Below are positions 237 to 16,825 of a stretch of 23,184 nt of DNA, piece after piece. The first letter of the stretch is position 1, and every line of letters begins with the position of its first letter. The DNA is from a virus. The stretch lies in UHGV virus genome UHGV-0173641; one strand, 5' to 3'. Both the position numbers and the translations under genes were made by a program. A model generated the notes under the pieces. That model ran no database searches, had not been told where the DNA came from, and saw only the letters and a program-made list of their open reading frames with translations.

Positions 237-1256
237 TTAATCCCCCGTGGACACTGCGTGGACACTTACGCCACCTTTCAGCGGATTAAGGGCCACCGCA
301 TCCTGCAGGTAATCCGGTGCAAAATGCGCATATGCCATTGTTTGCTGAATGGTTGCGTGGCCAAGAATCTTCTGAAGCGCAATAATGTTTCCTCCGTTCA
401 TCACAAAATGGCTGGCGAACGTATGCCGCAGCACATGTGCAGCCTGGCCTTTTGGTAAATCGGGCTTAACTCTTTTCAGCGCCAAGCAGAATTCCCGGTA
501 CTTCACCTCAAACAAGCCGCCTGTTTCTCTGGTTTTGATCGCCTCACAAACTGCCTGCGAAATTGGCACTGTTCTCTTTCGGCCATTTTTGGTTTCAAGA
601 AACGTTACACGGTTATGAACTATCTGTTCACCACGAAGCTTACAAGCTTCACTCCAGCGCGCCCCTGTGCTTAAACACAAAAGCGCAACACGCCAGTAGT
701 CGCCCTCCAATGTATCGAGCAATAGCGCTACTTCCTTCCGGGACAGGAAAGCCATTTCTCGCGGGGATACATAAAGAATAGAAATCCCCCTTACCGGATG
801 CTCTGCATCCCAGAGGCCTATTTTCTTCAGTACGGTAAACATTCCGGATAACCGATTCATATATCTGTTAGCAGATGACGGTTTCAATCCATCAGCTATC
901 TTTTGAGAACGCCACGCGATAATTTTCAGCTTATCAAGATCCACAGCCTGCATATCAGCGCCAAGCTCATTGATTATGTTGCGCAGTTGTTTTCGGTCTT
1001 CTTCCGCCTTACGCCTGTGCTGGCCGTGATACATCCACCACAACTCAAGCAAATCATTTAGCGTTCGACGATCACGGTAGCCCTGTATATATTCCCGCTT
1101 TTCAGCGTTCGCCATGATGTAGCGTTCAGTGGCCACCGCTACCGATTTTTTGTCAAATACCTTACGCACGCGCTTTCCCTTGCGTCCGTTCGGCCTGATG
1201 TCCAGCAAATAACGACCATCTTCGAGCTTCTTAATCGACATCGCGAAGCCCTCCAA
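237..1256 (-). CDS. int: Phage tyrosine integrase (P2-type site-specific recombinase)
   Basis: 339-aa ORF. C-terminal catalytic region (ARWSE...HVLRHTFASH...LGHATIQQTMAYAH) matches the tyrosine recombinase R..HxxR..Y pattern. Sits at the prophage end next to the repressor, as in P2. Confidence 0.9.
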   Translation of the reverse strand: MEGFAMSIKKLEDGRYLLDIRPNGRKGKRVRKVFDKKSVAVATERYIMANAEKREYIQGYRDRRTLNDLLELWWMYHGQHRRKAEEDRKQLRNIINELGADMQAVDLDKLKIIAWRSQKIADGLKPSSANRYMNRLSGMFTVLKKIGLWDAEHPVRGISILYVSPREMAFLSRKEVALLLDTLEGDYWRVALLCLSTGARWSEACKLRGEQIVHNRVTFLETKNGRKRTVPISQAVCEAIKTRETGGLFEVKYREFCLALKRVKPDLPKGQAAHVLRHTFASHFVMNGGNIIALQKILGHATIQQTMAYAHFAPDYLQDAVALNPLKGGVSVHAVSTGD

Positions 1257-3068: not shown

Positions 3069-3161
3069 CGATACAAATAAAACATCAAATTAAATAAGAA
3101 AACGTGAAAACCATCCGTATTAACGGAGGTATTCGCACACGCAAATAACGGAGATACAAAA

Positions 3162-3572
3162 ATGCACGCAAAAGAAGAAGGTATCATCAGAGCACTGAGA
3201 GAAATTTCAAAGATGGAAAGCGAAGTAACGAAAAAAGCCGTAGCAAATAATCATATAGACGTCGCGACCCACACAATGATAGTCGCAAAAGTCACGGCAG
3301 AAGCCGCCAAAATCATCGAAGAACAGGGTGCGGAACTTACGCTTTTCAAAACTCAACCAGTCACCGGACTGGATTTATCTAACACCGGACGCCTTATTTA
3401 CACAATTGGCTCGGAGCCACAGCAATACACCATTATCGCCGGATTACAGGATAAATACTTGATCACTCCTCACCCCATAAGGGAATCAGAAATTCTGACA
3501 AATCTCCGCCTGATAGAGCGCTCTCAAGTCGCATTCATTGATGGCGCGCAACGTGCCGTATTTAACGCATAG
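3162..3572 (+). CDS. Hypothetical protein (136 aa) in an AT-rich islet; possible moron/accessory gene
   Basis: Clean ORF with GGAG about 9 nt upstream of the ATG, preceded by ~100 bp of visibly AT-rich non-coding DNA (3069-3161). No family recognised. Confidence 0.6.
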   Translation: MHAKEEGIIRALREISKMESEVTKKAVANNHIDVATHTMIVAKVTAEAAKIIEEQGAELTLFKTQPVTGLDLSNTGRLIYTIGSEPQQYTIIAGLQDKYLITPHPIRESEILTNLRLIERSQVAFIDGAQRAVFNA

Positions 3573-3595
3573 GGCTATTGGGCAAAGAGAGCGTA

Positions 3596-4358: not shown

Positions 4359-4479
4359 GAAACCAGAACATGCACACACAAAAAAACCGCTTGCCATGCC
4401 TCAATCGGTCAGGTTACATTTCCGCCGCACCTCATAAAACGGGTGCCGGGATTTCCACCCCGCTGACAACTACAGCGCA

Positions 4480-4503
4480 CAACCGCGCCAGCGGTTTTTT
4501 TGT
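4480..4503 (+). terminator. Candidate intrinsic terminator or attenuator inside the early operon
   Basis: aaccgc-gcca-gcggtt hairpin (6-bp stem, 4-nt loop) followed by a T7 run at 4494-4500, inside a ~320 bp non-coding gap. Confidence 0.45.
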
Positions 4504-4680
4504 GCGTACTGTATCGCCACGTCTTTTTCGCACACGAATTATGGTGGGGCGTACGGGGCCGACTTCGGTCGGGCCGGGTTCTGTAGTTGCCGGTTGTGGA
4601 AACCCTGTACGTCTCACCACCCCGAGTTTTCCACCTCTGGATGGTGAGTTTTCAAAACTTGCAACTACAGAGGCCACACC

Positions 4681-4911
4681 ATGGCAAACCGCAAACAGCA
4701 CCGCGCTATCGCGGAGCGTCGTCACATCCAGACTGAAATCAACCGCAGACTTTTCCGCGCATCACGCGTCGCGCAAATCATGCACATCAATATGCTGCAT
4801 GAGCGCAGCCACGCACTATCAAACATCTATTCCGCCGCTGTTTTCAGCTATCTGGCGGATGATCTGCACGAGCTTCAACAGCTCATCCAGCAGCAAAACA
4901 AACTCCATTAA
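4681..4911 (+). CDS. Hypothetical small basic protein (76 aa)
   Basis: ORF with GAGG ~8 nt upstream of the ATG; protein-like composition, unlike the overlapping 205-aa S/T/R-rich frame (4370-4987) that I reject. Confidence 0.45.
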   Translation: MANRKQHRAIAERRHIQTEINRRLFRASRVAQIMHINMLHERSHALSNIYSAAVFSYLADDLHELQQLIQQQNKLH

Positions 4912-4983
4912 TTCCTGTTCCGGGCCTTTCCTGCACCTTGCGGCGGGAGGCCTTCGCACATCTGTAACCAGAGGATTGCCGCA

Positions 4984-5349
4984 ATGATTCTCGCCAACGA
5001 CTTTCTTGAATACCTGCTCAACACAGAGCGTGATCTTGCCGTTCGCGTGCGTGAACGTTATGACATGTACCTGAAATCCCTGCCTGTACCGCAGCTCGCT
5101 GACGGAAAGATTGTTATTGATGGTCGCTACATGATTGACAGCCACGAGGGAAATTACAGGCTTTACCGCATTGAAGGTGGCACCCCGTACGTTATTGGCA
5201 TTTACCAGCGCCCATCCTCTGCAATCGTCGATGTGATTGCCGACAGCATCCGCATCACACATCGCCATGCCGACACAGAAGACACCGTGCTGGAAATTCA
5301 GCGGCTGGCTACAGTCTGCCGCGACACCCTGAATGGCATGACGAAGTAA
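4984..5349 (+). CDS. Hypothetical protein (121 aa) immediately upstream of replication gene A
   Basis: ORF with GAGG upstream; stop 6 bp before the A start. Occupies the position of a replication accessory gene (P2 B-like position) but no similarity recognised. Confidence 0.55.
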   Translation: MILANDFLEYLLNTERDLAVRVRERYDMYLKSLPVPQLADGKIVIDGRYMIDSHEGNYRLYRIEGGTPYVIGIYQRPSSAIVDVIADSIRITHRHADTEDTVLEIQRLATVCRDTLNGMTK

Positions 5350-5355
5350 ATCACT

Positions 5356-8178
5356 ATGACGGCAGAGTACATCAGGGACTGGCAACAACCGCGCCACGCA
5401 GTGGGGCGTGAAGGAACGGGGATCCCCGCTCCTGAATCCGCGCTTTCCTCCTGGCTGGATGCTTACCGGGCAGAGAACGAGCGCCGCCAGGAAATGGCTG
5501 ATGCGGCGTTCTCCGCCACGCCGCTGGGCAACCTGATTAATAAAAGCCTGGACGCACAGGAAAAACAGGACAAAACCATCACACTGGCAGGAGACGCCAG
5601 AAAACAGGCACGCGGCGCGGTGGATGAAGCCATGGCCTCGCTGCGCCTGCTGCCGTCCTATCTGCGCGATCCGCTTATTCGCCACCTCTCCTTCCTGCGC
5701 AAAAAACAGGAAGCCGATCGCCAGAAAGGCAAAAAGAGCTGGCAGGCTGAACGCTACGCGCGCGGAACCCTGCGCAAAATATTCGAACGTCTGGACCGCA
5801 CCGACCACCGCTGGCTGACACGGGGTTATCGCGCCCTTGCCGGACGCGAACGCCTGGACGATTTGCTTTACCTGCCGCAGCTCAACAAGCACCAGATACA
5901 GACGCTGGCCACCATGACGGCGGCGATGTTCAGCAGCACCTTCGAAAAACTCTGCAATGGCTTTGGCGCGACCGATGGCGAGCTGACCATGGATGTAACC
6001 CTGAAGGCGTATCAGATGCTGGCCCGCATGGCGTTACACCTGCACGCCATGCCTCCACATTATGACGCACTGACAACAGACAAAGACCGGAGGAACGAAC
6101 CGGACACGGAACTGCTGCCGGGCGCAATCCTTCGCCTGACCTGTGCGGAATGGTGGAAACGCAAACTGTGGCTGTTACGTTGCGAGTGGAGAGAAGAACA
6201 ACTCCGCGCCGCCTGTCTGGTTTCCAGAAAGACATCGCCCTATCTGAGCCAGGACGCGTTAAGCGAGTTTCGCGCACAGCGCGAGAAAACACGCGATTTC
6301 CTGAAAAGTTTCATGCTGGAAAACGAAGATGGGTTCACGATTGATCTCGAGACAGTGTATTACGCGGGAGTAAGTAACCCGGTTCACCGTAAGGCAGAAA
6401 TGATGGCCACCATGAAGGGGCTGGAACTTCTGGCCGAAGCCCGTGGCGACAAAGCGGTGTTTCTGACTGTCACCTGCCCGTCAAAATACCACGCCACAAC
6501 AGAGAACGGTCATCCGAATCCCAAATGGAACGGGGCCACCATGCGCGACTCCAGCGATTACCTGGTTAACACGTTTTTTGCGGCGGTCCGCAAGAAACTG
6601 AACCGCGACGGCCTGCGCTGGTATGGCATCCGCACGGTGGAGCCTCACCATGACGGCACCGTGCACTGGCATATGATGGTCTTTGCTCATCCGGAAGAAA
6701 TCGACAGCATCGTGGCCATCACCCGCGATATTGCCATTCAGGAAGACCGCCACGAGCTGGGCAATGATATTACTCCGCGCTTTAAGGCGGAGTATGTCGA
6801 CGGCTCAAAAGGCACACCAACCAGCTACATCGCGACCTACATCGGGAAAAACCTGGACAGCCGTGCCGTGGATGGCATCGACCCGAAAACGGGCAAGCCA
6901 CGCGTTGACCACGAAACCGGAAAATCAATGGCCGAGAGCGTGGAACGCGCCATCGGCTGGGCGCGCCTTCACCGGGTCCGCCAGTTCCAGTTCTTTGGCA
7001 TCCCCTCCCGCCAGGTATGGCGTGAACTGCGCCGCCTTGCCAGCCAGATGGCACGCAACCCGGAAGGCCCGCAACGGCTGAAGGATGACGCAATGGATGC
7101 GGTTCTTGCCGCCGCTGATGCCGGATGTTTTGCCACCTACATAGAGAAACAGGGCGGCGTACTTGTTCCACGCAAAGACTACCTGATTCGCACCGCCTAC
7201 GACCTCGCCGATGAGCTGAACGATTACGGCGAACAGAGCGTACAGATTTACGGGATCTGGTCACCACTCATCGGGGAATCCTCCCGTGTGTGCACGCATC
7301 CGGATAACTGGAAGCTGGTAAGACGCAAACCGGAAGCGAAAGACAGCGCCAGCGAAAATGGTTTTGACCTTCAGGGCGGCCCTGCCGCCCCTTGGACTCG
7401 TGGCAATAACTGTCCCCGTGTACAGGAAACGGACAACAACGGGACAGAACAGCCGGAAGAACGGCCAGCACCGTGGCCGCAGCTTCCTGACGGCGTTGAT
7501 GTGGATGAATGGATGCGCTCACTGAAACGGCACGAACGCCGGGCGCTGATGCGTTCGCTGCGTGACAAACAGGCAAAAAACAGCAGTGATGAAATGCAGA
7601 GCTGGACACAGAGCCGCAAACAGCAGCGGCCTTTGCCTGATAACCACGAATTACTCGCTAAAGAATGGCGGGAGTCTGCCGAATCTCTCGGCCTGCATAT
7701 CGGTGAACAGCAGATGCAGCACCTGTTACGGGGCGGCAGCCTGTACGTTGACGGCAGCATCATTGCACCGCAGGGATTTGAAATTGTACGCAAACCGGAT
7801 ACCCGCCCGGACAGCCGAATCACGCAGCTCTGGCAGCGCCTGAGCCGTAATCACGGCGTAAGCAGCACGGAGATCCGCCATAACCCGGTCGCCGGCTATC
7901 TGGAACAGCTGGGGGCATCAGACCCCGAAGCCGCCGCACGCCTGGCATCCACACTTCAGCAGGACCAGAACACCATGAAAACCCCCGTTACCGTGCTTTC
8001 TGACATGCTGCGCGCCATCCGTGACGCAGAGCACGCACAGAGAATCAGTGAAACCACTGAACGCGCCCGCCGCAAAGCAGACCTGCTGCGGGGTAGCCTG
8101 ACCAGTGGAAACAAAAAACAGACAGAAACGGGATTCACAAAACCCGTAAATGAGCAAAAAACGCGCCGCGATATATGA
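5356..8178 (+). CDS. A: Replication initiation endonuclease, P2 gpA-like rolling-circle initiator (940 aa)
   Basis: Large ORF in the P2 A position. Contains an H-x-H (HWH) and paired tyrosines (YIATYIGKN) consistent with the HUH rolling-circle motifs of this family. About 180 aa longer than P2 A as I recall it (761 aa), with a charged/low-complexity C-terminal third. Confidence 0.85.
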   Translation: MTAEYIRDWQQPRHAVGREGTGIPAPESALSSWLDAYRAENERRQEMADAAFSATPLGNLINKSLDAQEKQDKTITLAGDARKQARGAVDEAMASLRLLPSYLRDPLIRHLSFLRKKQEADRQKGKKSWQAERYARGTLRKIFERLDRTDHRWLTRGYRALAGRERLDDLLYLPQLNKHQIQTLATMTAAMFSSTFEKLCNGFGATDGELTMDVTLKAYQMLARMALHLHAMPPHYDALTTDKDRRNEPDTELLPGAILRLTCAEWWKRKLWLLRCEWREEQLRAACLVSRKTSPYLSQDALSEFRAQREKTRDFLKSFMLENEDGFTIDLETVYYAGVSNPVHRKAEMMATMKGLELLAEARGDKAVFLTVTCPSKYHATTENGHPNPKWNGATMRDSSDYLVNTFFAAVRKKLNRDGLRWYGIRTVEPHHDGTVHWHMMVFAHPEEIDSIVAITRDIAIQEDRHELGNDITPRFKAEYVDGSKGTPTSYIATYIGKNLDSRAVDGIDPKTGKPRVDHETGKSMAESVERAIGWARLHRVRQFQFFGIPSRQVWRELRRLASQMARNPEGPQRLKDDAMDAVLAAADAGCFATYIEKQGGVLVPRKDYLIRTAYDLADELNDYGEQSVQIYGIWSPLIGESSRVCTHPDNWKLVRRKPEAKDSASENGFDLQGGPAAPWTRGNNCPRVQETDNNGTEQPEERPAPWPQLPDGVDVDEWMRSLKRHERRALMRSLRDKQAKNSSDEMQSWTQSRKQQRPLPDNHELLAKEWRESAESLGLHIGEQQMQHLLRGGSLYVDGSIIAPQGFEIVRKPDTRPDSRITQLWQRLSRNHGVSSTEIRHNPVAGYLEQLGASDPEAAARLASTLQQDQNTMKTPVTVLSDMLRAIRDAEHAQRISETTERARRKADLLRGSLTSGNKKQTETGFTKPVNEQKTRRDI

Positions 8179-8226
8179 AGCGCGCATAAAACAGGCAAAA
8201 ACGGGATTTAAAAACCCCGTAAACGA
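8113..8226. repeat. Two ~41-bp direct repeats (8113-8153 and 8186-8226), each with an internal ACGGG...CCCGT dyad; candidate parC-like centromere/operator
   Basis: aaaaaacagacagaaacgggattcacaaaacccgtaaatga versus ataaaacaggcaaaaacgggatttaaaaaccccgtaaacga, about 34 of 41 identical by hand alignment, 73 bp start-to-start. Copy 1 lies in the last codons of A, copy 2 in the gap upstream of the ParM-like gene. Confidence 0.6.
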
Positions 8227-8254
8227 TTAATTAATCAACATAAGGAAAATCGAC

Positions 8255-9214
8255 ATGAAAATCTGTATCGACGACGGCTCCACCAACATCAAGCTGGCAT
8301 GGACTGAGAACGGCGAACGCCGCAACGCCATCAGCCCGAACAGCTTCAAATCGGAATGGTCTGCGCCGTTCGGTGGCATGCAGCCCGCAAACTACATGCT
8401 TGATGGCGTGCGCTATGGTTTTGATCCGGTCAGCGATCGATTTGTCCAGACGACCGACACGCAATACCAGTACAGCGATGTGAATGTAATTGCCATTCAT
8501 CACGCGCTGGTCAAATCAGGCATCACGCCACAGGAGGTGGATGTGGTTGTCACCCTGCCACTGAGCGAGTATTTCGACACAAACGCACAACCGGACATGG
8601 CCAACATCAACCGCAAAAAAGCGAACGTTATGCGCCCGGTGGAATACCAGAACGGCGAAGCATTCACTATCCGTAATGTACGGGTTATGCCTGAATCCAT
8701 TCCGGCTGGCTTTAAAGCACTGGCTGACATGAGTCCGTTTGAATCCCTGCTGATTGTGGATTTAGGCGGAACCACGCTGGATGTGGCAAAGGTTCAGGGA
8801 CAACTGGCAGGTATCAGCCAGGTGTTTTGCGATCCACACGTAGGCGTTTCCCTGATGGCCGATGCCGTACTGTCGGTGATGGCCACCAACGGTATGCGTA
8901 CCAGTCACCACATCGCCAATACCATTATCGAACATCGCCATGATGAAGCCTGGCTGCGCCAGCACATCCACAATGACGCGCATTACGGCAGCCTGATGGC
9001 GGTTATTCGTGAAAAGGAAGAAACACTGAAACAACGAGTGATCCGCGCGCTGGCGGGTTTTTCGGGTTACGGGCGGGTGATGGTTGTCGGTGGCGGGGCG
9101 GAGATTGTGGCACCCGCTATCCGCGAAGCCTGCGGAGTTAATGCGGCTTTCATCGCAGACGGGGTGCCACAGTTTGCTCTGGTCAATGGTTTGTACGCAA
9201 TGGACAAGGAGTAA
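8255..9214 (+). CDS. parM: ParM/StbA-like actin-type ATPase (type II plasmid partition family)
   Basis: 319 aa. N-terminus MKICIDDGSTNIKLAW and LIVDLGGTTLDVAK, plus SDVNVIAIHHAL, VMPESIPAG, MVVGGGAE and LVNGLY, match plasmid R1 ParM as I recall it (MLVFIDDGSTNIKLQW..., LIIDLGGTTLDIS, VMVIGGGAE). Strong AAGGA RBS. Confidence 0.88.
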   Translation: MKICIDDGSTNIKLAWTENGERRNAISPNSFKSEWSAPFGGMQPANYMLDGVRYGFDPVSDRFVQTTDTQYQYSDVNVIAIHHALVKSGITPQEVDVVVTLPLSEYFDTNAQPDMANINRKKANVMRPVEYQNGEAFTIRNVRVMPESIPAGFKALADMSPFESLLIVDLGGTTLDVAKVQGQLAGISQVFCDPHVGVSLMADAVLSVMATNGMRTSHHIANTIIEHRHDEAWLRQHIHNDAHYGSLMAVIREKEETLKQRVIRALAGFSGYGRVMVVGGGAEIVAPAIREACGVNAAFIADGVPQFALVNGLYAMDKE

Positions 9215-9218
9215 ACCC

Positions 9219-9530
9219 ATGACGACATCAACCTGGCGGATAAGTTTCTATCTGAAGCCCTCCGCTGTCAAGAACGAAGGCGAAGCATGCGCCTGGCTGG
9301 ACAGCCTTACACCAGAAGCCCGCAAAAGCGGCCAACGCGTGGCTTTTCTGGCCGGGCTGGCACTTCTGAAAATGAATCCGGCAGAGGCTTACCGACTGGC
9401 TGCATGGGCTGATGATGAAGTGTTATCAGTGACACAGACCAGGACAGAACGCCCCGCATCACAGCCAGTATCAACCGCACAGATAACCAGTCAGATGGCC
9501 GGAAATATCCGGGCGTTATTTCCTGAATAA
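9219..9530 (+). CDS. parR: ParR/StbB-like adaptor protein (small DNA-binding partner of ParM)
   Basis: 103 aa from ATG 9219, 4 bp after the parM stop, with AAGGAG upstream. ISFYLKPS...LDSLTPEARKSGQRVAFLAGLAL...NIRALFPE resembles R1 ParR as I recall it (IAFKLNPD...LDSIPQGERSRLNRAALTAGLAL...NILRSLFP). The longer ORF-track start at 9084 is rejected. Confidence 0.65.
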   Translation: MTTSTWRISFYLKPSAVKNEGEACAWLDSLTPEARKSGQRVAFLAGLALLKMNPAEAYRLAAWADDEVLSVTQTRTERPASQPVSTAQITSQMAGNIRALFPE

Positions 9531-9536
9531 CACAAC

Positions 9537-9558
9537 ATCAGGGCGAGTTCGCCCTGAT
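9537..9558. promoter_or_regulatory. Perfect 10-bp inverted repeat (atcagggcga-gt-tcgccctgat): candidate operator or terminator stem
   Basis: Palindrome between the parR-like stop (9530) and the GTG start at 9583. No T-run follows, so a protein-binding site or RNA stem is as likely as a terminator. Confidence 0.45.
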
Positions 9559-9582
9559 AACACTATCCAAAGGAGGCAAGCA

Positions 9583-10590
9583 GTGAGCATCATTCAGCGC
9601 TGCCGAGCAGAAAACACTTTTAATTTGGTTTCCATGTCTGGCGGGAAAGACTCACTGGCGCAATGTTTGTATGCCATAGAAAACGATATACAGCATGAGC
9701 GAGTGTTTGCTGATACGGGGCACGAACACCCACAAACGATGGAGTACCTTGACTATCTGGAACAAAAGCTGGGACCAATTCGCCGCGTAAAAGCCGACTT
9801 CACTCGCCAGATAGAAGGTAAGCGCAAATTCATTGCTGAAAAATGGCCAGTATCTCTTGTTGCAGAGTGCGGAATGACGCCTGATGAAGCAGCGGAACGT
9901 GTTGCTTGTGCGCTGGAAATCCTCCACCCAACCGGAAATCCATTTCTTGATCTGTGCATGTGGAAAGGTCGTTTCCCGAGCACTAAAGCGCGGTTCTGTA
10001 CATTCGAACTGAAACACGAACCAGTGCGCACTCAGGTGGTGCAACCTGCGCTTGATGAATATGACGAAGTTATCTCCTGGCAGGGTGTGCGTGCTCAGGA
10101 ATCGCCATCGAGGGCACGCCTGCAAGTGTGGGAGGAAGATGCGGACAATACCCCCGGATTGCATGTCTATCGTCCGATTTTCAACTGGCTACATGAGGAT
10201 GTTTTCGCTATTGCCAGGCGTCACGGGATTAAACCCAACCCGCTCTACCAACAAGGATGCAGCCGCGTTGGGTGTATGCCATGCATTCATGCCAGAAAAT
10301 CTGAACTGGCGGAAATTTTTCAGCGTTGGCCAGAGGAAATCGCCAGAGTGGCAGAGTGGGAACGATTAGTTGCAGCCTGCTCTCGCCGCGGCAACTCAAC
10401 GTTTTTCCCGTCAACTCATGACCCGCGCCGGGCAGAACGTCGCATAGATGTTGTTACCGTAGACAGCTACGGAATCGAAACCTATCGCGACTGGGCAATG
10501 ACAACCCGGGGCGGCGCTCAATTTGACCTGCTGGCGAGCACGAACGATAAGGCGGTGTGCAACAGTGTTTATGCGGGAGTATGCGAATGA
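9583..10590 (+). CDS. PAPS reductase-like / PP-loop ATP pyrophosphatase family protein (335 aa) with C-terminal Cys cluster
   Basis: N-terminal PP-loop SMSGGKDS (SGGxDS) typical of the PAPS reductase / DndC-like superfamily. Cysteine cluster CSRVGCMPC (Cx4Cx2C). GTG start with strong AAAGGAGG RBS. Last gene before the cos region. Confidence 0.8.
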   Translation: MSIIQRCRAENTFNLVSMSGGKDSLAQCLYAIENDIQHERVFADTGHEHPQTMEYLDYLEQKLGPIRRVKADFTRQIEGKRKFIAEKWPVSLVAECGMTPDEAAERVACALEILHPTGNPFLDLCMWKGRFPSTKARFCTFELKHEPVRTQVVQPALDEYDEVISWQGVRAQESPSRARLQVWEEDADNTPGLHVYRPIFNWLHEDVFAIARRHGIKPNPLYQQGCSRVGCMPCIHARKSELAEIFQRWPEEIARVAEWERLVAACSRRGNSTFFPSTHDPRRAERRIDVVTVDSYGIETYRDWAMTTRGGAQFDLLASTNDKAVCNSVYAGVCE

Positions 10591-10665
10591 ACAGCATGAA
10601 AATACTGTTACCCGACATCTGATTTTACTTCTTCAAATCAGGGCAATAATCACGCATCGCCCTGC

Positions 10666-10764
10666 TGCACAATAGTGCACAAATTTGCACAATTTTTTTG
10701 AACGACTTTTTGCCCTTCCGGCCCGCATGGCGGCTGGATCCGTCAGGGATCCGTGCGTGCACAA
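10666..10764. repeat. Phased TGCACAA repeats in the cos-proximal intergenic region; candidate terminase-binding (cosB-like) sites
   Basis: TGCACAA at 10666-10672, 10676-10682 and 10686-10692 (exact 10-bp phasing), plus a fourth copy at 10758-10764. Confidence 0.45.
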
Positions 10765-10779
10765 AAAACGCGCTTTTTC

Positions 10780-10810
10780 TGCGCGCAGGTGACGGGGGAA
10801 CAGCCCGCGT
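10780..10810 (+). other. Candidate cos site (cohesive-end region), degenerate P2-like
   Basis: ggtgacgggggaacagccc (10788-10806) matches about 13 of 19 positions of the P2 cohesive end as I recall it (GGCGAGGCGGGGAAAGCAC). Location (between the hotspot and the 3' end of Q) is where P2 cos lies. Tentative. Confidence 0.3.
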
Positions 10811-11062
10811 TTCAGGGGGCAAATAGCGTTCCCTTAACGATGTCGCAGCGACACGACAGAATGGCCGTATTTCTCACGCTGAGCGTGAAAAATACGTGAG
10901 GGATTCTGATTTGATGGGGTGAAAGGTAAGGCCGTCAAAATCGCACTGAGACGGCGAGAACATGCAGTCAACGCGGTGGGATTGCGTAAGAGTCTGACTG
11001 TCGATGATGGCAATCAGCAGGAAAGCGTCGTGAAATTATCTGACTGATACAGGAGCTGGAGA

Positions 11063-11091
11063 GCCGGGGCATAAATTTTTTATGCCCCGGC
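11063..11091. terminator. Bidirectional intrinsic terminator downstream of portal gene Q
   Basis: Palindrome gccggggcataaa-ttt-tttatgccccggc: GC-rich stem with A/T runs on both sides, 25 bp beyond the Q stop on the - strand. Confidence 0.65.
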
Positions 11092-11115
11092 GAAGCAGCA
11101 GACAAGCGAAGCGCG

Positions 11116-12162
11116 TCAGGATGTGGGCTGGGTGTCTAACAGTGCGTAAGGGTTAAAGCGGATCACCTCTTCGCCAAGCCAGTCATTGATGTGCTTCATG
11201 GCCTCCATGACGGGCATCAGCTCGTTAATTGCGTAAACCCGCGCGGCCTTCTCCACATCACCAAACGCACTTTTTTCGCCCGGCATCGCCCCCATCAGTT
11301 GCGGCGGAACGCGGTGCGCAGCCAGCACATCATCACGGGATGCCGCCTTAACATTCATGAACTCATCCTTTGCGGTGATCTGCTGGAACGGCAAAATTTG
11401 CACCCCCTCTTTGCCCCCGTTGGGCGCATGGATGAGCACGTTTTTAAACGCGCCACCACCACGCGCACCCTGTAACGTTTCTTTCAGGGAGTCCATGCTT
11501 TCGCGGTTTACCTGCGCTGCACCGATGTAGATGATGCACCCGGCGTGGGATCCATTGTCGTAGTACAGTTTTCTGAACATGTCCGCCGAATGAGACAGGC
11601 TGGCCGAGAGTAATGCGCCGAGATATTCCGGCATGCCGTAGATTTCCTGGTTAATATCCGGATTCATCAGGTGGCACACTTTGCCAGGGCGAAACTGAAA
11701 CGCATCCTTGCCATCCTGCACATACCACCATGATTCAAGATCACTTCCGCGTCGCATGTATTTCGCCAGGGCGTGCCGTAATTTAAGCGGTTCGCCGAGC
11801 ATATTGCTCCGAAGCTCAAGGAATGCGTTACCGAACACAAACCAGTCCAGCGCCAGCGCCGAGAAATCCTGCCGGGAAAGCAGCGGGTGCGGAATATAGC
11901 AACCGAGCAATACATTGCGCTTAAAGTAAAGCGCAGACTGATGCCAGGACGTTTGCCGGGCGGCTCTTGCCAGACCGTACCAGTCCACCGGGGTTTCATA
12001 CCACCGCCCGTTATCAGCACAGTACATATTGTCCAGCAAATCATGCCCGGTCAGGCGATAAGGACCATCAAATGTGAATGCACTGAGAGACGATTCTTTC
12101 CTGAGCGCATCAGCGAGATCAATGCGTGAACTCATGCGCACTTTTTTATTTTTTCTGCTCAT
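11116..12162 (-). CDS. Q: Portal protein (P2 gpQ-like)
   Basis: 348-aa ORF on the - strand directly downstream of the terminase ATPase with a 1-nt overlap; size and position match P2 Q (about 344 aa as I recall). Confidence 0.88.
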   Translation of the reverse strand: MSRKNKKVRMSSRIDLADALRKESSLSAFTFDGPYRLTGHDLLDNMYCADNGRWYETPVDWYGLARAARQTSWHQSALYFKRNVLLGCYIPHPLLSRQDFSALALDWFVFGNAFLELRSNMLGEPLKLRHALAKYMRRGSDLESWWYVQDGKDAFQFRPGKVCHLMNPDINQEIYGMPEYLGALLSASLSHSADMFRKLYYDNGSHAGCIIYIGAAQVNRESMDSLKETLQGARGGGAFKNVLIHAPNGGKEGVQILPFQQITAKDEFMNVKAASRDDVLAAHRVPPQLMGAMPGEKSAFGDVEKAARVYAINELMPVMEAMKHINDWLGEEVIRFNPYALLDTQPTS

Positions 12163-14926: not shown

Positions 14927-15979
14927 ATGAATCTGGTGATGTCAGATATTACCCGCAATAAGCTGGGTTGCTATATGGCGCAGCAGGCGTCGCTTAACAA
15001 TATCCCGGTTTCTGCGCTGGTATCGAGATTTACCGTGGAACCCGCGGTGCAGCAGCGTTTTGAAAACGCCTCAAAGGACAGCACAGAATTAACGAAAAGA
15101 ATTAACGTGATCGGCGTGACCGACCAGAAAGGCGAAAAAATCCTCCTGGACACCACAGGACCGATTGCGCGCACGAATACCAGTTATGACGGCACAAAAC
15201 GCCGTAACCCGAATAACGTGGTTAATCTGAAAAACCGCAAATACCAGTGCGAACAGGTGAACTACGACACGTTTATTTCGTATCCGCAGCTTGATGCCTG
15301 GTCGGCACACCCTGATTTTCAGTCCCGCATCAGCGCACAGATTGCCCGACAGGTGGCGCTTGACCGCATCATGATCGGTTTCAACGGCACGTCTCACGCG
15401 GATGAGTCCAACTTCAGCACCAACAAGCTGCTTCAGGACGTTAACGTGGGCTGGCTGGAGCACATCAGAACCGACGCCAGCGAACGCGTTATGAATGACG
15501 TGACGCTGACCTCCCGCAACATGGACAACACCGTGGCGCACGTGGGTAAGTATGCGAACGCTGATGCACTGGTACAGGACGCGCGTTCATCCCTGCTGGA
15601 TGAATGGCACAAGGAAGCTGACGACCTCGTGGTGATTATGGGGCGCAACCTGTTTAACTCGCTGCGTCTGCCCGTGCTGAACAGCATCAGCGGCCAGAAT
15701 CCCAATGCGGAATTACTTGCCGGGCAGCTCATCCTGTCATCGCGCACCATTGGCGGGCTGGGCGTGTTCCTTGCGCCGTTCTTCCCGGATGCAACGATGC
15801 TGATCACCTCGTTCAACAACCTGTCGATTTACTGGCAGAAAGGTTCAATGCGTCGTCTGATGAAAGACGAACCGGAATACAACCGTATCGCCACCTACCA
15901 GTCCATCAATGACGCTTATGTCGTTGAAGACTATGGCAAGTGCGCGATGGTCACTGGCCTGAAGTTCGCCGACAGCTAA
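14927..15979 (+). CDS. N: Major capsid protein (P2 gpN-like)
   Basis: 350 aa, AAGGAG RBS. Motifs KFTVEP, MIGFNG, VGWL, NLSIYW and YVVEDY match P2 N as I recall it. Confidence 0.9.
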   Translation: MNLVMSDITRNKLGCYMAQQASLNNIPVSALVSRFTVEPAVQQRFENASKDSTELTKRINVIGVTDQKGEKILLDTTGPIARTNTSYDGTKRRNPNNVVNLKNRKYQCEQVNYDTFISYPQLDAWSAHPDFQSRISAQIARQVALDRIMIGFNGTSHADESNFSTNKLLQDVNVGWLEHIRTDASERVMNDVTLTSRNMDNTVAHVGKYANADALVQDARSSLLDEWHKEADDLVVIMGRNLFNSLRLPVLNSISGQNPNAELLAGQLILSSRTIGGLGVFLAPFFPDATMLITSFNNLSIYWQKGSMRRLMKDEPEYNRIATYQSINDAYVVEDYGKCAMVTGLKFADS

Positions 15980-15988
15980 TCAACTCAC

Positions 15989-16007
15989 GGCGGGCATCAT
16001 GCCCGCC
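15989..16007 (+). other. Perfect 9-bp stem hairpin directly downstream of the major capsid gene
   Basis: ggcgggcat-c-atgcccgcc, 10 bp after the N stop. No T-run, so more likely an mRNA stability element or partial terminator. Confidence 0.4.
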
Positions 16008-16024
16008 TGTAACGGAGAGAAAAA

Positions 16025-16825
16025 ATGATTACTCCTGCACAGCAACACTGGCAGAACGTGATGGCACAGCGCGCAGGCCGGGCGAATGAAGGCGTGGACC
16101 ACGCCGCGCGTACCGCGCATGAAGAGGTGCTGTATCGTCTGCGTCTGGCACAGGCCCGGCTTAAGGGCGTACAGGCCAGAAGCGCGAAAGCCGCCATCAA
16201 AAAAGAGTTGTTGCCGGACTTTTCCGGCTGGATTGAGGGAACGCTGGAGGCTGACGGCGGGCAGCAGGACGAAGTGATTGCCACGCTGATGGTGTGGGCG
16301 ATTGACTGCGGCGATCTTCCGCTTGCGCTGCGTATTGGCGCGTATGTGGTCCGTCACAACCTCATCATGCCGGATAACTTTGGCCGTACTGCTGCCACAG
16401 TGCTGACCGAAGAAATCTGCAACCCGGTACTGACGCAGGCCGGGACGGATGCCGACGCGGATTTGTCCGCCTTTATCGAACCACTGGATACCCTCCGGGA
16501 GATTGTCACCGACCAGGACATGCCGGACGAAGTGCGCGCCAAATTATGCAAGGCGTGCGCCTTTGCCCGCCGTGGCCTGAGCGATGCGGACAGCATGGCC
16601 CTGTCACTGAAGCTGCTGCGCGAAGCAATGCACCTGAACCCGAACGCAGGTGTGAAACGCGAGATTGCAACCCTTTCCCGCGCCCTGAAAAAAGCCGATT
16701 CCGCAGCCGCACCAGAAGATGCCAGCACACCGCAGGCGCAGGACGAAAGCAGCAAAAGTAAAAAGACAACGCGGAAGCCTGCAACACGAAAAACCACCGC
16801 GACGCAGAAGGCGAAGCGCGGTTAA
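16025..16825 (+). CDS. M: Terminase small / endonuclease subunit (P2 gpM-like)
   Basis: 266 aa. MITPAQQHW..., DMPDEVRAKL and AGVKREI match P2 M as I recall it (MTSPAQRHM..., DMPDEVRAKL, AGVKKEIERL); K/R-rich C-terminal tail. Confidence 0.85.
   Translation: MITPAQQHWQNVMAQRAGRANEGVDHAARTAHEEVLYRLRLAQARLKGVQARSAKAAIKKELLPDFSGWIEGTLEADGGQQDEVIATLMVWAIDCGDLPLALRIGAYVVRHNLIMPDNFGRTAATVLTEEICNPVLTQAGTDADADLSAFIEPLDTLREIVTDQDMPDEVRAKLCKACAFARRGLSDADSMALSLKLLREAMHLNPNAGVKREIATLSRALKKADSAAAPEDASTPQAQDESSKSKKTTRKPATRKTTATQKAKRG

What the first reader, a model, noticed from the sequence alone, without database searches (positions are those of the whole stretch)
8179..10590. Three-gene cargo (ParM-like, ParR-like, PAPS-reductase-like) sits in the P2 tin/old defence hotspot
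Gene order here is the canonical P2 order (int, C, cox, early genes, A, cargo, cos, Q, P, O...). The slot between A and cos is where P2 carries tin and old, and it is a documented hotspot where P2-like phages swap anti-phage systems. Instead of tin/old this element has an actin-like ParM homologue, a ParR-like adaptor and a PP-loop PAPS-reductase-like enzyme. I do not recognise this combination as a described defence system. It could be one new system, or a partition module plus an independent single-gene defence or DNA-modification enzyme.
Basis: partly seen in the sequence, partly recalled or inferred. Interest (0 to 1): 0.8.

Follow-up and report, generated by a model that had tools for sequence, protein, structure and literature searches.

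The report
Partition module plus separate phage enzyme gene
The three genes are real but are not one new defence system: two form a plasmid-type partition module already known in about a quarter of E. coli P2-like prophages, and the third is a separately acquired copy of a known, uncharacterised phage 186 early gene that probably modifies nucleic acid.

Summary
ParM (8255-9214), ParR/StbB (9219-9530) and a PAPS-reductase-domain protein (9583-10590) lie between the replication gene A and the portal gene Q of a P88-like (Xuanwuvirus) P2-type prophage.

The "three-gene cargo" reading is not supported.
- parM-parR, with two 42-nt repeats upstream (a candidate parC), is a fixed backbone module. It occurs at about 96% identity in 1316 of 5426 complete E. 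coli genomes. Rousset et al. 2022 already noted it in this hotspot.
- Homology to relatives breaks at 9530-9561 and resumes at 10635-10666. The variable cassette is therefore the PAPS-like gene alone.
- That gene is 82-84% identical in protein to the non-essential orf84 of phage 186. In 67 of the 68 E. coli genomes that carry the family, and in about 30 other Enterobacterales species, it lies immediately 5' of A in the early operon. It is never next to parMR there.

The protein has an invariant SGGKDS PP-loop and four conserved cysteines. Relatives are often adjacent to DNA methyltransferases. A fused relative in a Vibrio phage confers anti-Dnd activity.

The most likely function is a phage nucleic-acid modification or counter-defence enzyme, not a lysogen defence. 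This is a new member of known kinds and of modest interest.

The parts
5356..8178 (+). Replication endonuclease gene A (P88 type, 940 aa). It is the left landmark of the hotspot, and its last ~65 nt contain the first parC-like repeat.
   Evidence: PF05840 Phage_GPA on the 98% identical protein in L007. Annotated 'replication endonuclease' in NZ_CP136025 and P88.
8112..8153 (.). 42-nt direct repeat, copy 1, holding the palindrome ACGGGATT-N4-AAyCCCGT. Candidate parC / ParR operator half.
   Evidence: the repeat finder family D1. The motif occurs twice in the window against 0 expected by chance. In E. coli SWHEFF_58 the transplanted parMR cassette begins exactly at this repeat.
8185..8226 (.). 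42-nt direct repeat, copy 2 (83% identical to copy 1, 73 nt start to start), in the A-parM intergenic region. Candidate parC / promoter-operator.
   Evidence: Conserved in P88, Chuche, no107 and SWHEFF_58.
8255..9214 (+). parM, an actin-like segregation ATPase of the R1 (type II) kind.
   Evidence: Pfam 2.7e-82 and 8.6e-68. PDB 1mwk at E 1.3e-92. 47-52% identical to IncF plasmid ParM.
9219..9530 (+). parR/stbB, the centromere-binding adaptor.
   Evidence: PF10784 4.5e-23. phrog_2515 3.5e-56. Annotated 'plasmid partitioning/stability family protein' in relatives.
9536..9559 (.). Perfect 10-bp hairpin just after parR. It is the last element shared with P88 and marks the left edge of the variable slot.
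   Evidence: scored as terminator-like on the - strand only. Backbone homology to P88 ends at 9561, and to phiSM and Chuche at 9530-9533.
9562..10634 (+). Variable single-gene cassette, which is the real 'cargo' of this element.
   Evidence: blastn against P88, phiSM and Chuche: homology stops at 9530-9561 and resumes at 10635-10666. Relatives carry other genes here.
9583..10590 (+). PAPS-reductase-like PP-loop ATP pyrophosphatase with conserved cysteines. Homologue of phage 186 orf84.
   Evidence: PF01507 1.6e-36. 82% identical in protein to 186 NP_052288 and 84% to Yersinia phage P37 gp06. Family-wide invariant S19GGKDS24, C139, C231, C234 and C334. pN 0.125 against saturated pS versus 186.
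10675..10700 (+). First terminator-like hairpin plus T-run on the + strand after the cassette, inside the backbone shared with relatives. Probable end of an A-parM-parR-cargo transcript (inferred).
   Evidence: It lies to the right of the junction at 10635-10666.
11116..12162 (-). Portal gene Q, the right landmark of the hotspot.
   Evidence: PF04860 Phage_portal on the 99% identical protein in L007 and the annotation.

Best explanation
The interval holds two unrelated modules, one after the other.

(1) A type II partition cassette of the R1 kind. It consists of two 42-nt repeats with palindromes (candidate parC, 8112-8226), parM and parR. The cassette is a mobile unit among P2-like phages and has become a fixed backbone feature of the P88-like (Xuanwuvirus) lineage. 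By analogy with R1 (established knowledge), ParR would bind the repeats and ParM filaments would push copies of the circular phage genome apart. This would stabilise the genome whenever it is extrachromosomal. Nothing links the cassette to phage defence.

(2) A single-gene cassette (9562-10634) in the truly variable sub-slot after parR. It carries a member of the phage 186 orf84 family. This is a PP-loop ATP pyrophosphatase with four conserved cysteines: three are placed like the Fe-S ligands of APS reductase, and one lies on the flexible C-terminal tail. I infer DndC/SspD/TtuA-type chemistry, meaning ATP-dependent adenylation of a substrate followed by sulfur transfer. I infer that the substrate is phage nucleic acid, and that the biological role is self-modification or counter-defence during lytic growth, for example against phosphorothioate-dependent restriction.

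In this lineage the gene has been moved from its usual place just 5' of A to the accessory slot 3' of parR. It is still co-oriented with A, and no + strand terminator precedes it.

Shown here: the gene identities, the module boundaries, the independent distribution, the purifying selection, the conserved motifs and the methyltransferase linkage. Inferred: the substrate, the sulfur chemistry, the expression pattern and the counter-defence role.
For: Decomposition into two modules:
- parMR occurs in 1316 of 5426 E. coli genomes, with the PAPS-like gene alongside it in only 1.
- Homology breakpoints lie at 9530-9561 and 10635-10666.
- Relatives carry other cargo after parR: P88, phiSM, Chuche, UTI89, 2015C-3121 and no107, plus a 60-genome spread sample.
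- Rousset 2022 reports StbA + Plasmid_stab_B in about a quarter of P2-like hotspots, with variable companion genes.
- The parMR cassette, including both repeats and a 3' remnant of the P88-type A gene, is found transplanted into a different P2-like phage. Homology there starts at the first repeat.

Identity and usual context of the third gene:
- It is 82-84% identical in protein to 186 orf84 and P37 gp06. The 186 record annotates orf84 as 'unknown function; not essential' and as translationally coupled to A.
- It lies immediately 5' of gpA in about 30 Enterobacterales species loci, none of which carries ParM or ParR. The same holds in 67 of 68 E. coli genomes.

Chemistry:
- SGGKDS, C139, C231xxC234 and C334 are 90-100% conserved across 113 diverse family representatives.
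- Fold matches are APS/PAPS reductases, then the [4Fe-4S] sulfurtransferase TtuA.
- The best defence-library profiles are the phosphorothioation enzymes SspD, BrxP and DndC.

Link to nucleic-acid modification:
- A D12 Dam methyltransferase lies directly upstream in 17 Enterobacterales loci.
- C5 or D12 methyltransferases are adjacent in at least 8 distant betaproteobacterial loci.
- In phiE125 the order is methyltransferase gp56, PAPS-like gp57, ParB-like gp58.
- A Vibrio phage PAPS-domain::Dam fusion, transferred together with one neighbouring gene, confers anti-Dnd activity (preprint 10.1101/2021.05.05.442762).
- PAPS reductases in Aca-regulated operons have been proposed as anti-defence genes (PMC13551039).

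Selection: pN 0.125 against saturated synonymous sites versus 186, and dN/dS 0.16 within the hotspot lineage.
Against: - No biochemical or genetic function is known for any close member of this family. I found no paper on 186 orf84.
- The Vibrio precedent is a distant, shorter, fused PAPS domain. It was tested together with a second gene.
- A lone DndC-like protein lacks the DndD/DndE or SspB/SspC partners that known phosphorothioation systems need.
- The window has no DNA methyltransferase, and neither 186 nor P37 has one adjacent. The methyltransferase linkage could simply reflect two accessory genes sharing one slot.
- Similarity to CysH-type profiles (65 bits) is of the same order as similarity to SspD (86 bits).
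- The only complete E. coli genome with this arrangement carries the gene as a pseudogene, with a stop at codon 304. The gene is therefore dispensable there.
- For parMR, parC is only a candidate, and nearly all copies of the element are integrated: 1468 chromosomal places against 2 on plasmids. The benefit of a partition system is therefore unexplained.
Confidence: 0.6

Rival explanations
1. One new three-gene anti-phage system, in which ParM filaments and ParR position or activate the PP-loop enzyme on DNA.
For: The three genes are adjacent, co-oriented and closely spaced, inside a documented defence hotspot. Partition-like proteins do recur beside PAPS-like genes elsewhere: ParB-like gp58 in phiE125, and phrog_424 has an N-terminal extension.
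Against: The genes assort independently. 1316 E. coli genomes have parMR and only 1 of them has the third gene. 67 of 68 genomes with the PAPS-like family, and about 30 other species, lack parMR next to it. The homology breakpoints isolate the PAPS-like gene as its own cassette. Synonymous sites are saturated against the nearest non-hotspot relatives, while the backbone is 96-98% identical to its relatives, so the histories differ. ParM and ParR have no PADLOC hits. The recurring partner elsewhere is ParB-like, not ParR or ParM.
Confidence: 0.03
2. The PAPS-like gene is a stand-alone, prophage-expressed defence gene. It would be a degenerate Ssp/Dnd/BREX-4-type enzyme that marks host DNA or poisons incoming phage.
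For: It sits in the gpA-gpQ hotspot, where many cargo genes are defences. Its best PADLOC profiles are SspD, BrxP and DndC.
Against: The hits are partial and far below family thresholds: TIGR03183 DndC scores 22 bits against a cut-off of 290. No partner or restriction genes are present in the window. The family's usual site is the early lytic operon, translationally coupled to A, which is not where lysogen-expressed defences sit. Other cargo in this P88-type sub-slot (Ead/Ea22, ClpX zinc finger, ASCH, XF1762) is typical early-gene accessory content, not defence systems.
Confidence: 0.1
3. The PAPS-like gene is an auxiliary metabolic gene: a CysH-like (P)APS reductase that boosts sulfate assimilation in the host. 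This was proposed for the Burkholderia phage morons.
For: Pfam PAPS_reduct domain. The top fold matches are APS/PAPS reductases. The CxxC and tail-cysteine pattern resembles APS reductase. The suggestion appears in the literature for phiE125-type prophages (PMC2920897).
Against: The invariant canonical SGGKDS PP-loop is replaced in the aligned APS reductase 2goy by SFSGAEDV. From established knowledge, CysH and APS reductases lack the ATP-binding PP-loop. NCBIfam cysH, APS and PAPS reductase models score 40-65 bits against cut-offs of 154-254. The C-terminus is G-x-C-E, not ECGLH. The gene sits among replication and early genes and next to DNA methyltransferases.
Confidence: 0.07
4. The PAPS-like protein acts on RNA or on gene expression rather than on DNA. 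It could be a tRNA thiolase-like enzyme, an IbrA-like co-activator, or an accessory factor for expression or activity of the A protein.
For: TtuA tRNA sulfurtransferases are among the fold matches. The top NCBIfam hits are archaeal PRK13795 and PRK08557 proteins, and a PUA-PAPS-reductase fusion exists in a Sulfolobus virus. In 186, translation through orf84 is needed for A translation. The phi458 homologue is annotated as a transcriptional regulator.
Against: In this window the gene is separated from A by parMR yet remains under purifying selection (dN/dS 0.16 within the lineage). Coupling to A is therefore not its reason for existing. The recurring neighbours are DNA methyltransferases, not RNA enzymes. 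No IbrA-type model hit was returned.
Confidence: 0.15

Closest known systems
ParMRC type II partition system of plasmid R1/NR1 (stbA/stbB)
   Same: The ParM here is full length and matches R1 ParM structures at E 1.3e-92. ParR belongs to the same Pfam family as StbB (PF10784). The gene order is repeats, parM, parR.
   Different: It is carried by an integrating P2-like phage that is almost always chromosomal. The upstream repeats are two 42-nt units with palindromes; from memory, R1 has ten 11-bp iterons. ParM is only about 47-52% identical to plasmid ParM.
StbA + Plasmid_stab_B content of the E. coli P2-like gpA-gpQ hotspot (Rousset et al. 2022, PMC9122126)
   Same: Same locus, same two domains, and the same pattern of variable companion genes such as Ead_Ea22 and DUF4760.
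   Different: I found no PAPS_reduct companion in the stored parts of their tables (the files are truncated). Among complete E. coli genomes this combination occurs once.
Phage 186 orf84 (NP_052288) and Yersinia phage P37 gp06
   Same: 82-84% protein identity over the full length, same size, and the same host phage family.
   Different: In 186 and P37 the gene lies immediately 5' of A and overlaps it, in the early operon. Here it lies 3' of A-parM-parR, in the hotspot. Nucleotide identity is only about 74% and is confined to the ORF.
DndC / SspD / BrxP, the PAPS-reductase-family enzymes of DNA phosphorothioation systems
   Same: Same superfamily, with a PP-loop SGGKDS and conserved cysteines compatible with an Fe-S cluster. 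These are the best hits in the defence library.
   Different: The matches are partial and well below the family cut-offs. No cysteine desulfurase, DndD/DndE, SspB/SspC, BREX or restriction partner genes are present. This protein has a C-terminal tail cysteine (C334).
Vibrio phage 44E38.1 p0018, a PAPS-domain::Dam fusion (Piel et al. 2022; preprint 10.1101/2021.05.05.442762)
   Same: A phage-encoded PAPS-reductase-family domain functionally tied to a DNA methyltransferase. The orf84 family is often adjacent to Dam or C5 methyltransferases.
   Different: p0018 has a short (~170 aa) PAPS domain fused to Dam and sits in a lytic podovirus. It is at best a distant relative; I did not have its sequence to compare. 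The window has no methyltransferase.
CysH / APS reductase
   Same: Same Pfam domain, and these are the best structural matches. The DTG, Arg-loop, NPLY and GCxPC motifs can be aligned.
   Different: The canonical ATP-binding PP-loop is retained here. Scores fall far below the curated cut-offs. The C-terminal motif and the genomic context both differ.

Membership tests
Type II (ParMRC) partition system | Actin-fold ParM ATPase | tested here: met
   Pfam StbA_N 2.7e-82 and ParM C-terminal domain 8.6e-68. R1 ParM PDB 1mwk at E 1.3e-92, residues 2-316.
Type II (ParMRC) partition system | Small ParR/StbB adaptor encoded immediately downstream of parM | tested here: met
   PF10784 4.5e-23 (81 bits against a cut-off of 25). 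A 4-nt gap separates it from parM.
Type II (ParMRC) partition system | Repeated centromere (parC) upstream of parM that ParR binds | tested here: inconclusive
   Two 42-nt repeats with palindromes at 8112-8226. They are conserved and travel with the cassette. No binding data exist, and there are only two repeat units.
Type II (ParMRC) partition system | Stabilises an extrachromosomal replicon | not testable with these tools
   The element is chromosomal at 1468 of 1470 places in E. coli. One 34,461-bp circular record exists.
P2-like gpA-gpQ variable hotspot cargo (Rousset 2022) | Located between replication gene A and portal gene Q | tested here: met
   A is at 5356-8178 and Q at 11116-12162.
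P2-like gpA-gpQ variable hotspot cargo (Rousset 2022) | Content varies between otherwise near-identical relatives | tested here: met
   Met for 9562-10634 only. Not met for parM-parR within the P88-like lineage, where they are about 96% conserved in 1316 genomes.
Known anti-phage defence systems (PADLOC-DB v2) | Proteins match system models and the required partner genes are present | tested here: not met
   ParM and ParR have no hits. The third protein has only partial SspD, BrxP and DndC hits. No SspABC/E, DndADE/FGH or BREX genes are in the window.
DndC (DNA phosphorothioation sulfurtransferase) | Scores above the TIGR03183 equivalog cut-off | tested here: not met
   22.1 bits against a cut-off of 290.4.
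CysH / APS / PAPS reductase | Scores above the curated model cut-offs | tested here: not met
   PRK02090 65 bits against 154, TIGR00434 43 against 165, TIGR02055 52 against 235.
CysH / APS / PAPS reductase | Degenerate P-loop and a C-terminal ECGLH catalytic motif (feature recalled from established knowledge) | tested here: not met
   A canonical SGGKDS is 90-96% conserved and the C-terminus is G-x-C-E. The aligned APS reductase 2goy has SFSGAEDV at that position.
Phage 186 orf84 family (phrog_15238 / phrog_424) | Full-length, high-identity match to orf84 | tested here: met
   81.7% identity over residues 3-335. phrog_15238 at 1e-112 and phrog_424 at 5e-83.
Phage 186 orf84 family (phrog_15238 / phrog_424) | Position immediately 5' of A in the early operon | tested here: not met
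   Here the gene lies 3' of A-parM-parR. The pre-A slot of the window holds an Ash-family ORF and a 121-aa ORF. The usual position is documented.
PP-loop ATP pyrophosphatase superfamily | SGGxDS PP-loop motif in a Rossmann-like fold | tested here: met
   S19GGKDS24. In the AF2 model the N-terminal half has pLDDT around 90, and fold matches are to PP-loop enzymes.

The most novel reading that the evidence does not exclude
The orf84-family protein is a portable, single-gene nucleic-acid sulfur-modification enzyme. Using ATP and a host persulfide donor such as IscS, it would install a phosphorothioate or thio-base mark on replicating phage DNA, or hijack the host Dnd/Ssp machinery to do so, without dedicated DndD/DndE-type partners. 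This would let P2/186-like phages escape modification-dependent restriction. P2-like phages would shuttle the gene between the pre-A early slot and the A-Q hotspot.
Probability: 0.22. Interest if true: 0.65.

Novelty: new member of a known kind. Interest (0 to 1): 0.3.

Why it matters
As a candidate new defence system the finding does not hold. Its value is mainly corrective. It shows that position in the P2 hotspot does not by itself make genes a system, or a defence.

Two smaller points survive.

First, the orf84 family is widespread in temperate phages: 377 clusters (50% identity) at E<=1e-30 in the representative search. It is under strong purifying selection, is repeatedly linked to DNA methyltransferases, and has no known function. 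It is present in phage 186, one of the best-studied model phages, so its role could be tested directly.

Second, it remains unexplained why an integrating phage lineage, present in about a quarter of E. coli genomes, keeps an intact R1-type partition module.

Tried and rejected
- cos site: the P2 cos consensus GGCGAGGCGGGGAAAGCAC has no match with up to 3 mismatches. blastn to the 186 right end showed nothing. cos was therefore not located.
- Promoters: the sigma-70 scan found none in 7900-11200. Expression had to be inferred from the absence of + strand terminators.
- Rfam found nothing in the interval.
- Structure: the AF2 model (pLDDT 74.9) has a C-terminal 60 residues of low confidence. 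Foldseek against PDB and BFVD returned only generic PP-loop and PAPS-reductase folds. The afdb50 library was unavailable.
- Sequence search of the PDB gave only weak CysH and APS reductase hits. ParR had no PDB relative.
- Literature: no paper on the function of 186 orf84. The IbrA/IbrB search returned only unrelated ophthalmology papers. The published Piel et al. 2022 paper is not held, so I used its preprint. The 2026 NAR survey of P2/P4 hotspots does not mention ParM, partition or PAPS. The Eganvirus paper does not mention the gene.
- Fusions: long family members showed no clear extra Pfam domain, apart from one weak methyltransferase-like N-terminus (P0247, E 2.7e-4).
- Rejected: a functional ParR/ParM-PAPS pairing by analogy with ParB-PAPS pairs, because the genes assort independently.
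- Rejected: plain CysH, because the PP-loop is retained and scores are below the cut-offs.

Full report
**What is there.** The window is a P2-type prophage. The gene order is int (237-1256, - strand), an HTH repressor, cox (PF10743), small early genes, A (5356-8178), the interval in question, then portal Q (11116-12162, - strand), terminase, scaffold and capsid. Three + strand ORFs fill the interval.
- ParM, 8255-9214: Pfam StbA_N 2.7e-82 and ParM C-terminal domain 8.6e-68. It matches R1 ParM structure 1mwk at E 1.3e-92.
- ParR/StbB, 9219-9530: PF10784 4.5e-23 and phrog_2515 3.5e-56.
- A PAPS_reduct-domain protein, 9583-10590: PF01507 1.6e-36. The GTG start follows an AAAGGAGG Shine-Dalgarno sequence and aligns with the ATG starts of homologues.

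PADLOC finds nothing for ParM or ParR, and only partial SspD (6e-25), BrxP and DndC matches for the third protein.

**Which phage, and what is conserved.** megablast places the element in the P88-like group (genus Xuanwuvirus, Peduoviridae): P88, P884B11, Citrobacter phiSM and Chuche. The 2.6-kb query matches 1316 of 5426 complete E. coli genomes, nearly all at 90-99% identity. Only one genome (NZ_CP136025) covers more than 80% of the query. All the others cover the A-end/parM/parR part and then diverge.

blastn against P88, phiSM and Chuche puts the left break at 9530-9561, just after parR and a conserved 10-bp hairpin. The right break is at 10635-10666. The variable unit is therefore one gene.

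Relatives fill this sub-slot with other content, or with nothing. Examples are Ead/Ea22-like genes, a ClpX-type zinc finger with XF1762, an ASCH-domain gene, an HTH + PIN pair, DUF4760 and a membrane protein.

Rousset et al. 2022 analysed exactly this gpA-gpQ locus. [quoted passage not shown] Their tables list StbA + Plasmid_stab_B with varying companions. I found no PAPS_reduct entry in the stored, truncated tables.

**The par module.**
- Two 42-nt direct repeats lie upstream of parM, at 8112-8153 (inside the 3' end of A) and 8185-8226. Each holds a palindrome of the form ACGGGATT-N4-AATCCCGT (0 expected by chance).
- In E. coli SWHEFF_58 a different P2-like phage, with a shorter A gene, carries parM-parR preceded by a 3' remnant of the P88-type A gene. 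Homology to the window starts exactly at the first repeat. The repeats therefore travel with parMR and are the best parC/operator candidate.
- ParM is about 47-52% identical to IncF plasmid ParM.
- The element is chromosomal at 1468 of 1470 E. coli places. Among plasmid records it appears 11 times, once as a 34,461-bp circle.
- What the partition module does for an integrating phage is not settled. Stabilising the circular genome before integration or after excision is the obvious inference.

**The third gene.**
- tblastn shows it is 81.7% identical in protein to phage 186 orf84 (NP_052288) and 83.6% to Yersinia phage P37 gp06.
- The 186 record notes [quoted passage not shown].
- In 186, in P37 and in an E. 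coli Peduovirus prophage, the gene overlaps the start of A in the early operon.
- A scan of one genome per species returned 60 loci. In about 30 Enterobacterales prophages the order is int ... PAPS-like -> A ... portal, and none of these loci has ParM or ParR. Only the P88-like loci have the gene after parR.
- In complete E. coli genomes the family occurs in 68 of 5426. In 67 of these it is about 74% identical in nucleotides and abuts the replication endonuclease gene. One is the hotspot copy, and there it is a pseudogene with a stop at codon 304.
- Against 186, non-synonymous divergence is 0.125 while synonymous sites are saturated. Within the hotspot lineage dN/dS is 0.16. The gene is under purifying selection and was not recently copied from 186.

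**What the protein looks like.**
- The representative search found 377 clusters at E<=1e-30, mostly stand-alone proteins of 300-380 aa.
- In an alignment of 113 of these, the following are 85-100% conserved: S19GGKDS24 (PP-loop), D44TGxE48, C139, K144, G168xRxxES..R177, N219PLY222, R228VGC231xPC234, and C334 at the penultimate position.
- The AF2 model (pLDDT 74.9) is confident over the Rossmann-like core. It is of low confidence at the CxxC loop and over the last 60 residues.
- Foldseek returns APS/PAPS reductases first and then the [4Fe-4S] tRNA sulfurtransferase TtuA.
- Curated CysH, APS reductase and DndC models all score far below their cut-offs.
- The retained ATP-binding PP-loop argues against a plain (P)APS reductase. 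In the aligned APS reductase that segment reads SFSGAEDV.
- I read the protein as an ATP pyrophosphatase with a probable Fe-S site and a mobile tail cysteine. That is the chemistry of DndC, SspD and TtuA. This step is inference.

**Context that bears on function.**
- In 17 Enterobacterales P2-like loci a D12-class Dam methyltransferase (PF02086, 3.8e-69) lies directly upstream, giving the order dam - PAPS-like - A.
- In distant betaproteobacterial prophages the neighbours are C5 methyltransferases (PF00145) or D12 methyltransferases.
- In Burkholderia phage phiE125 the order is methyltransferase gp56, PAPS-like gp57 ("similar to Phage 186 Orf84"), ParB-like gp58, next to the replication genes (see also PMC2920897).
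- In Vibrio crassostreae phages, transferring a PAPS-domain::Dam fusion gene together with one neighbouring gene let a phage overcome the host Dnd system (preprint 10.1101/2021.05.05.442762). A 2026 survey cites this work and notes PAPS reductases in Aca-regulated operons as likely anti-defence genes (PMC13551039).
- The window itself has no methyltransferase.
- Taken together, the most likely role is phage-side nucleic-acid modification or counter-defence. I put this at roughly 45%. The two-module decomposition I put at about 90%.

**Expression (inferred).**
- No sigma-70-like promoter was found in 7900-11200.
- No + strand terminator-like site lies between A and parM. A weak one lies inside the end of parR (9499-9512).
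- The first hairpin with a T-run after the cassette is at 10675-10700, in the shared backbone.
- The cargo slot thus appears to lie inside an A-parM-parR-cargo transcription unit. That fits an early-gene function as well as it fits a lysogen-expressed one.

**Verdict.** The finding's observation stands. The "one new system" and "defence" readings do not. What is present is a known partition module that is backbone for this lineage, plus a relocated copy of a known but uncharacterised phage early gene. Novelty: new member of known kinds. Interest: modest (0.3), mainly because the orf84 family has no known function and could be tested directly in phage 186.

Noticed in passing
window 4427-4624: Rfam finds isrK (4427-4501, 63.6 bits) and a C4 antisense RNA (4537-4624, 80.5 bits) on the + strand, inside the ORF 4370-4987 that carries an Ash-family domain. 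This looks like a P1/P7-type C4-RNA immunity or antirepressor module in the early region of a P2-like phage.
   Followed up: no
window 3146-3582: A low-GC (0.41) stretch with a 136-aa ORF (3162-3572; phrog_9338, unknown function; no Pfam or PADLOC hit). It is absent from the closest relative L001 and replaced by other sequence in L007. This is a second small variable slot in the early operon.
   Followed up: partly
window 237-1256 vs L001 7489-8463: The integrase is only 48% identical in protein to that of the otherwise 98% identical prophage in NZ_CP136025. The integration module has been swapped, so the attachment site probably differs.
   Followed up: no
window 11119-11141; L007 9548-10182: The sister prophage L007 has about 630 extra bases with a 174-aa ORF (no Pfam hit on record) inserted right next to the portal stop codon. 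A similar 525-nt ORF sits there in 2015C-3121. The gpA-gpQ region therefore has at least two separate insertion points.
   Followed up: no
L073 (E. coli SWHEFF_58) 1498-2918: The parMR cassette, with both upstream repeats and a 69-nt remnant of the P88-type A gene, is inserted in the hotspot of a different P2-like phage with a shorter A gene. This shows that the par module itself moves as a unit.
   Followed up: yes
L001 (NZ_CP136025) 15484-16488: The only complete E. coli genome with the same arrangement carries the PAPS-like gene as a pseudogene, with a nonsense codon at position 304 and otherwise 99.8% identical nucleotides.
   Followed up: yes
window 11063-11091: A perfect 13-bp inverted repeat with a 3-nt loop (GCCGGGGCATAAA/TTTATGCCCCGGC), flanked by T/A runs, just downstream of the portal gene. 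It is probably a bidirectional terminator separating the late operon from the hotspot.
   Followed up: no
plasmid record NZ_CP148288.1 (34,461 bp): A whole P88-like genome is deposited as a circular E. coli 'plasmid'. It may be an excised or replicating phage circle, or a true plasmid-state prophage, which bears on why the lineage keeps parMR.
   Followed up: no
L076 (phage phiE125) 1853-4840: A methyltransferase (gp56), a PAPS-like protein (gp57) and a ParB-like protein (gp58) form a tight trio next to the replication genes. The PAPS-like family can therefore sit beside a partition-like (ParB-fold) protein in other phages, although not beside ParR or ParM.
   Followed up: partly
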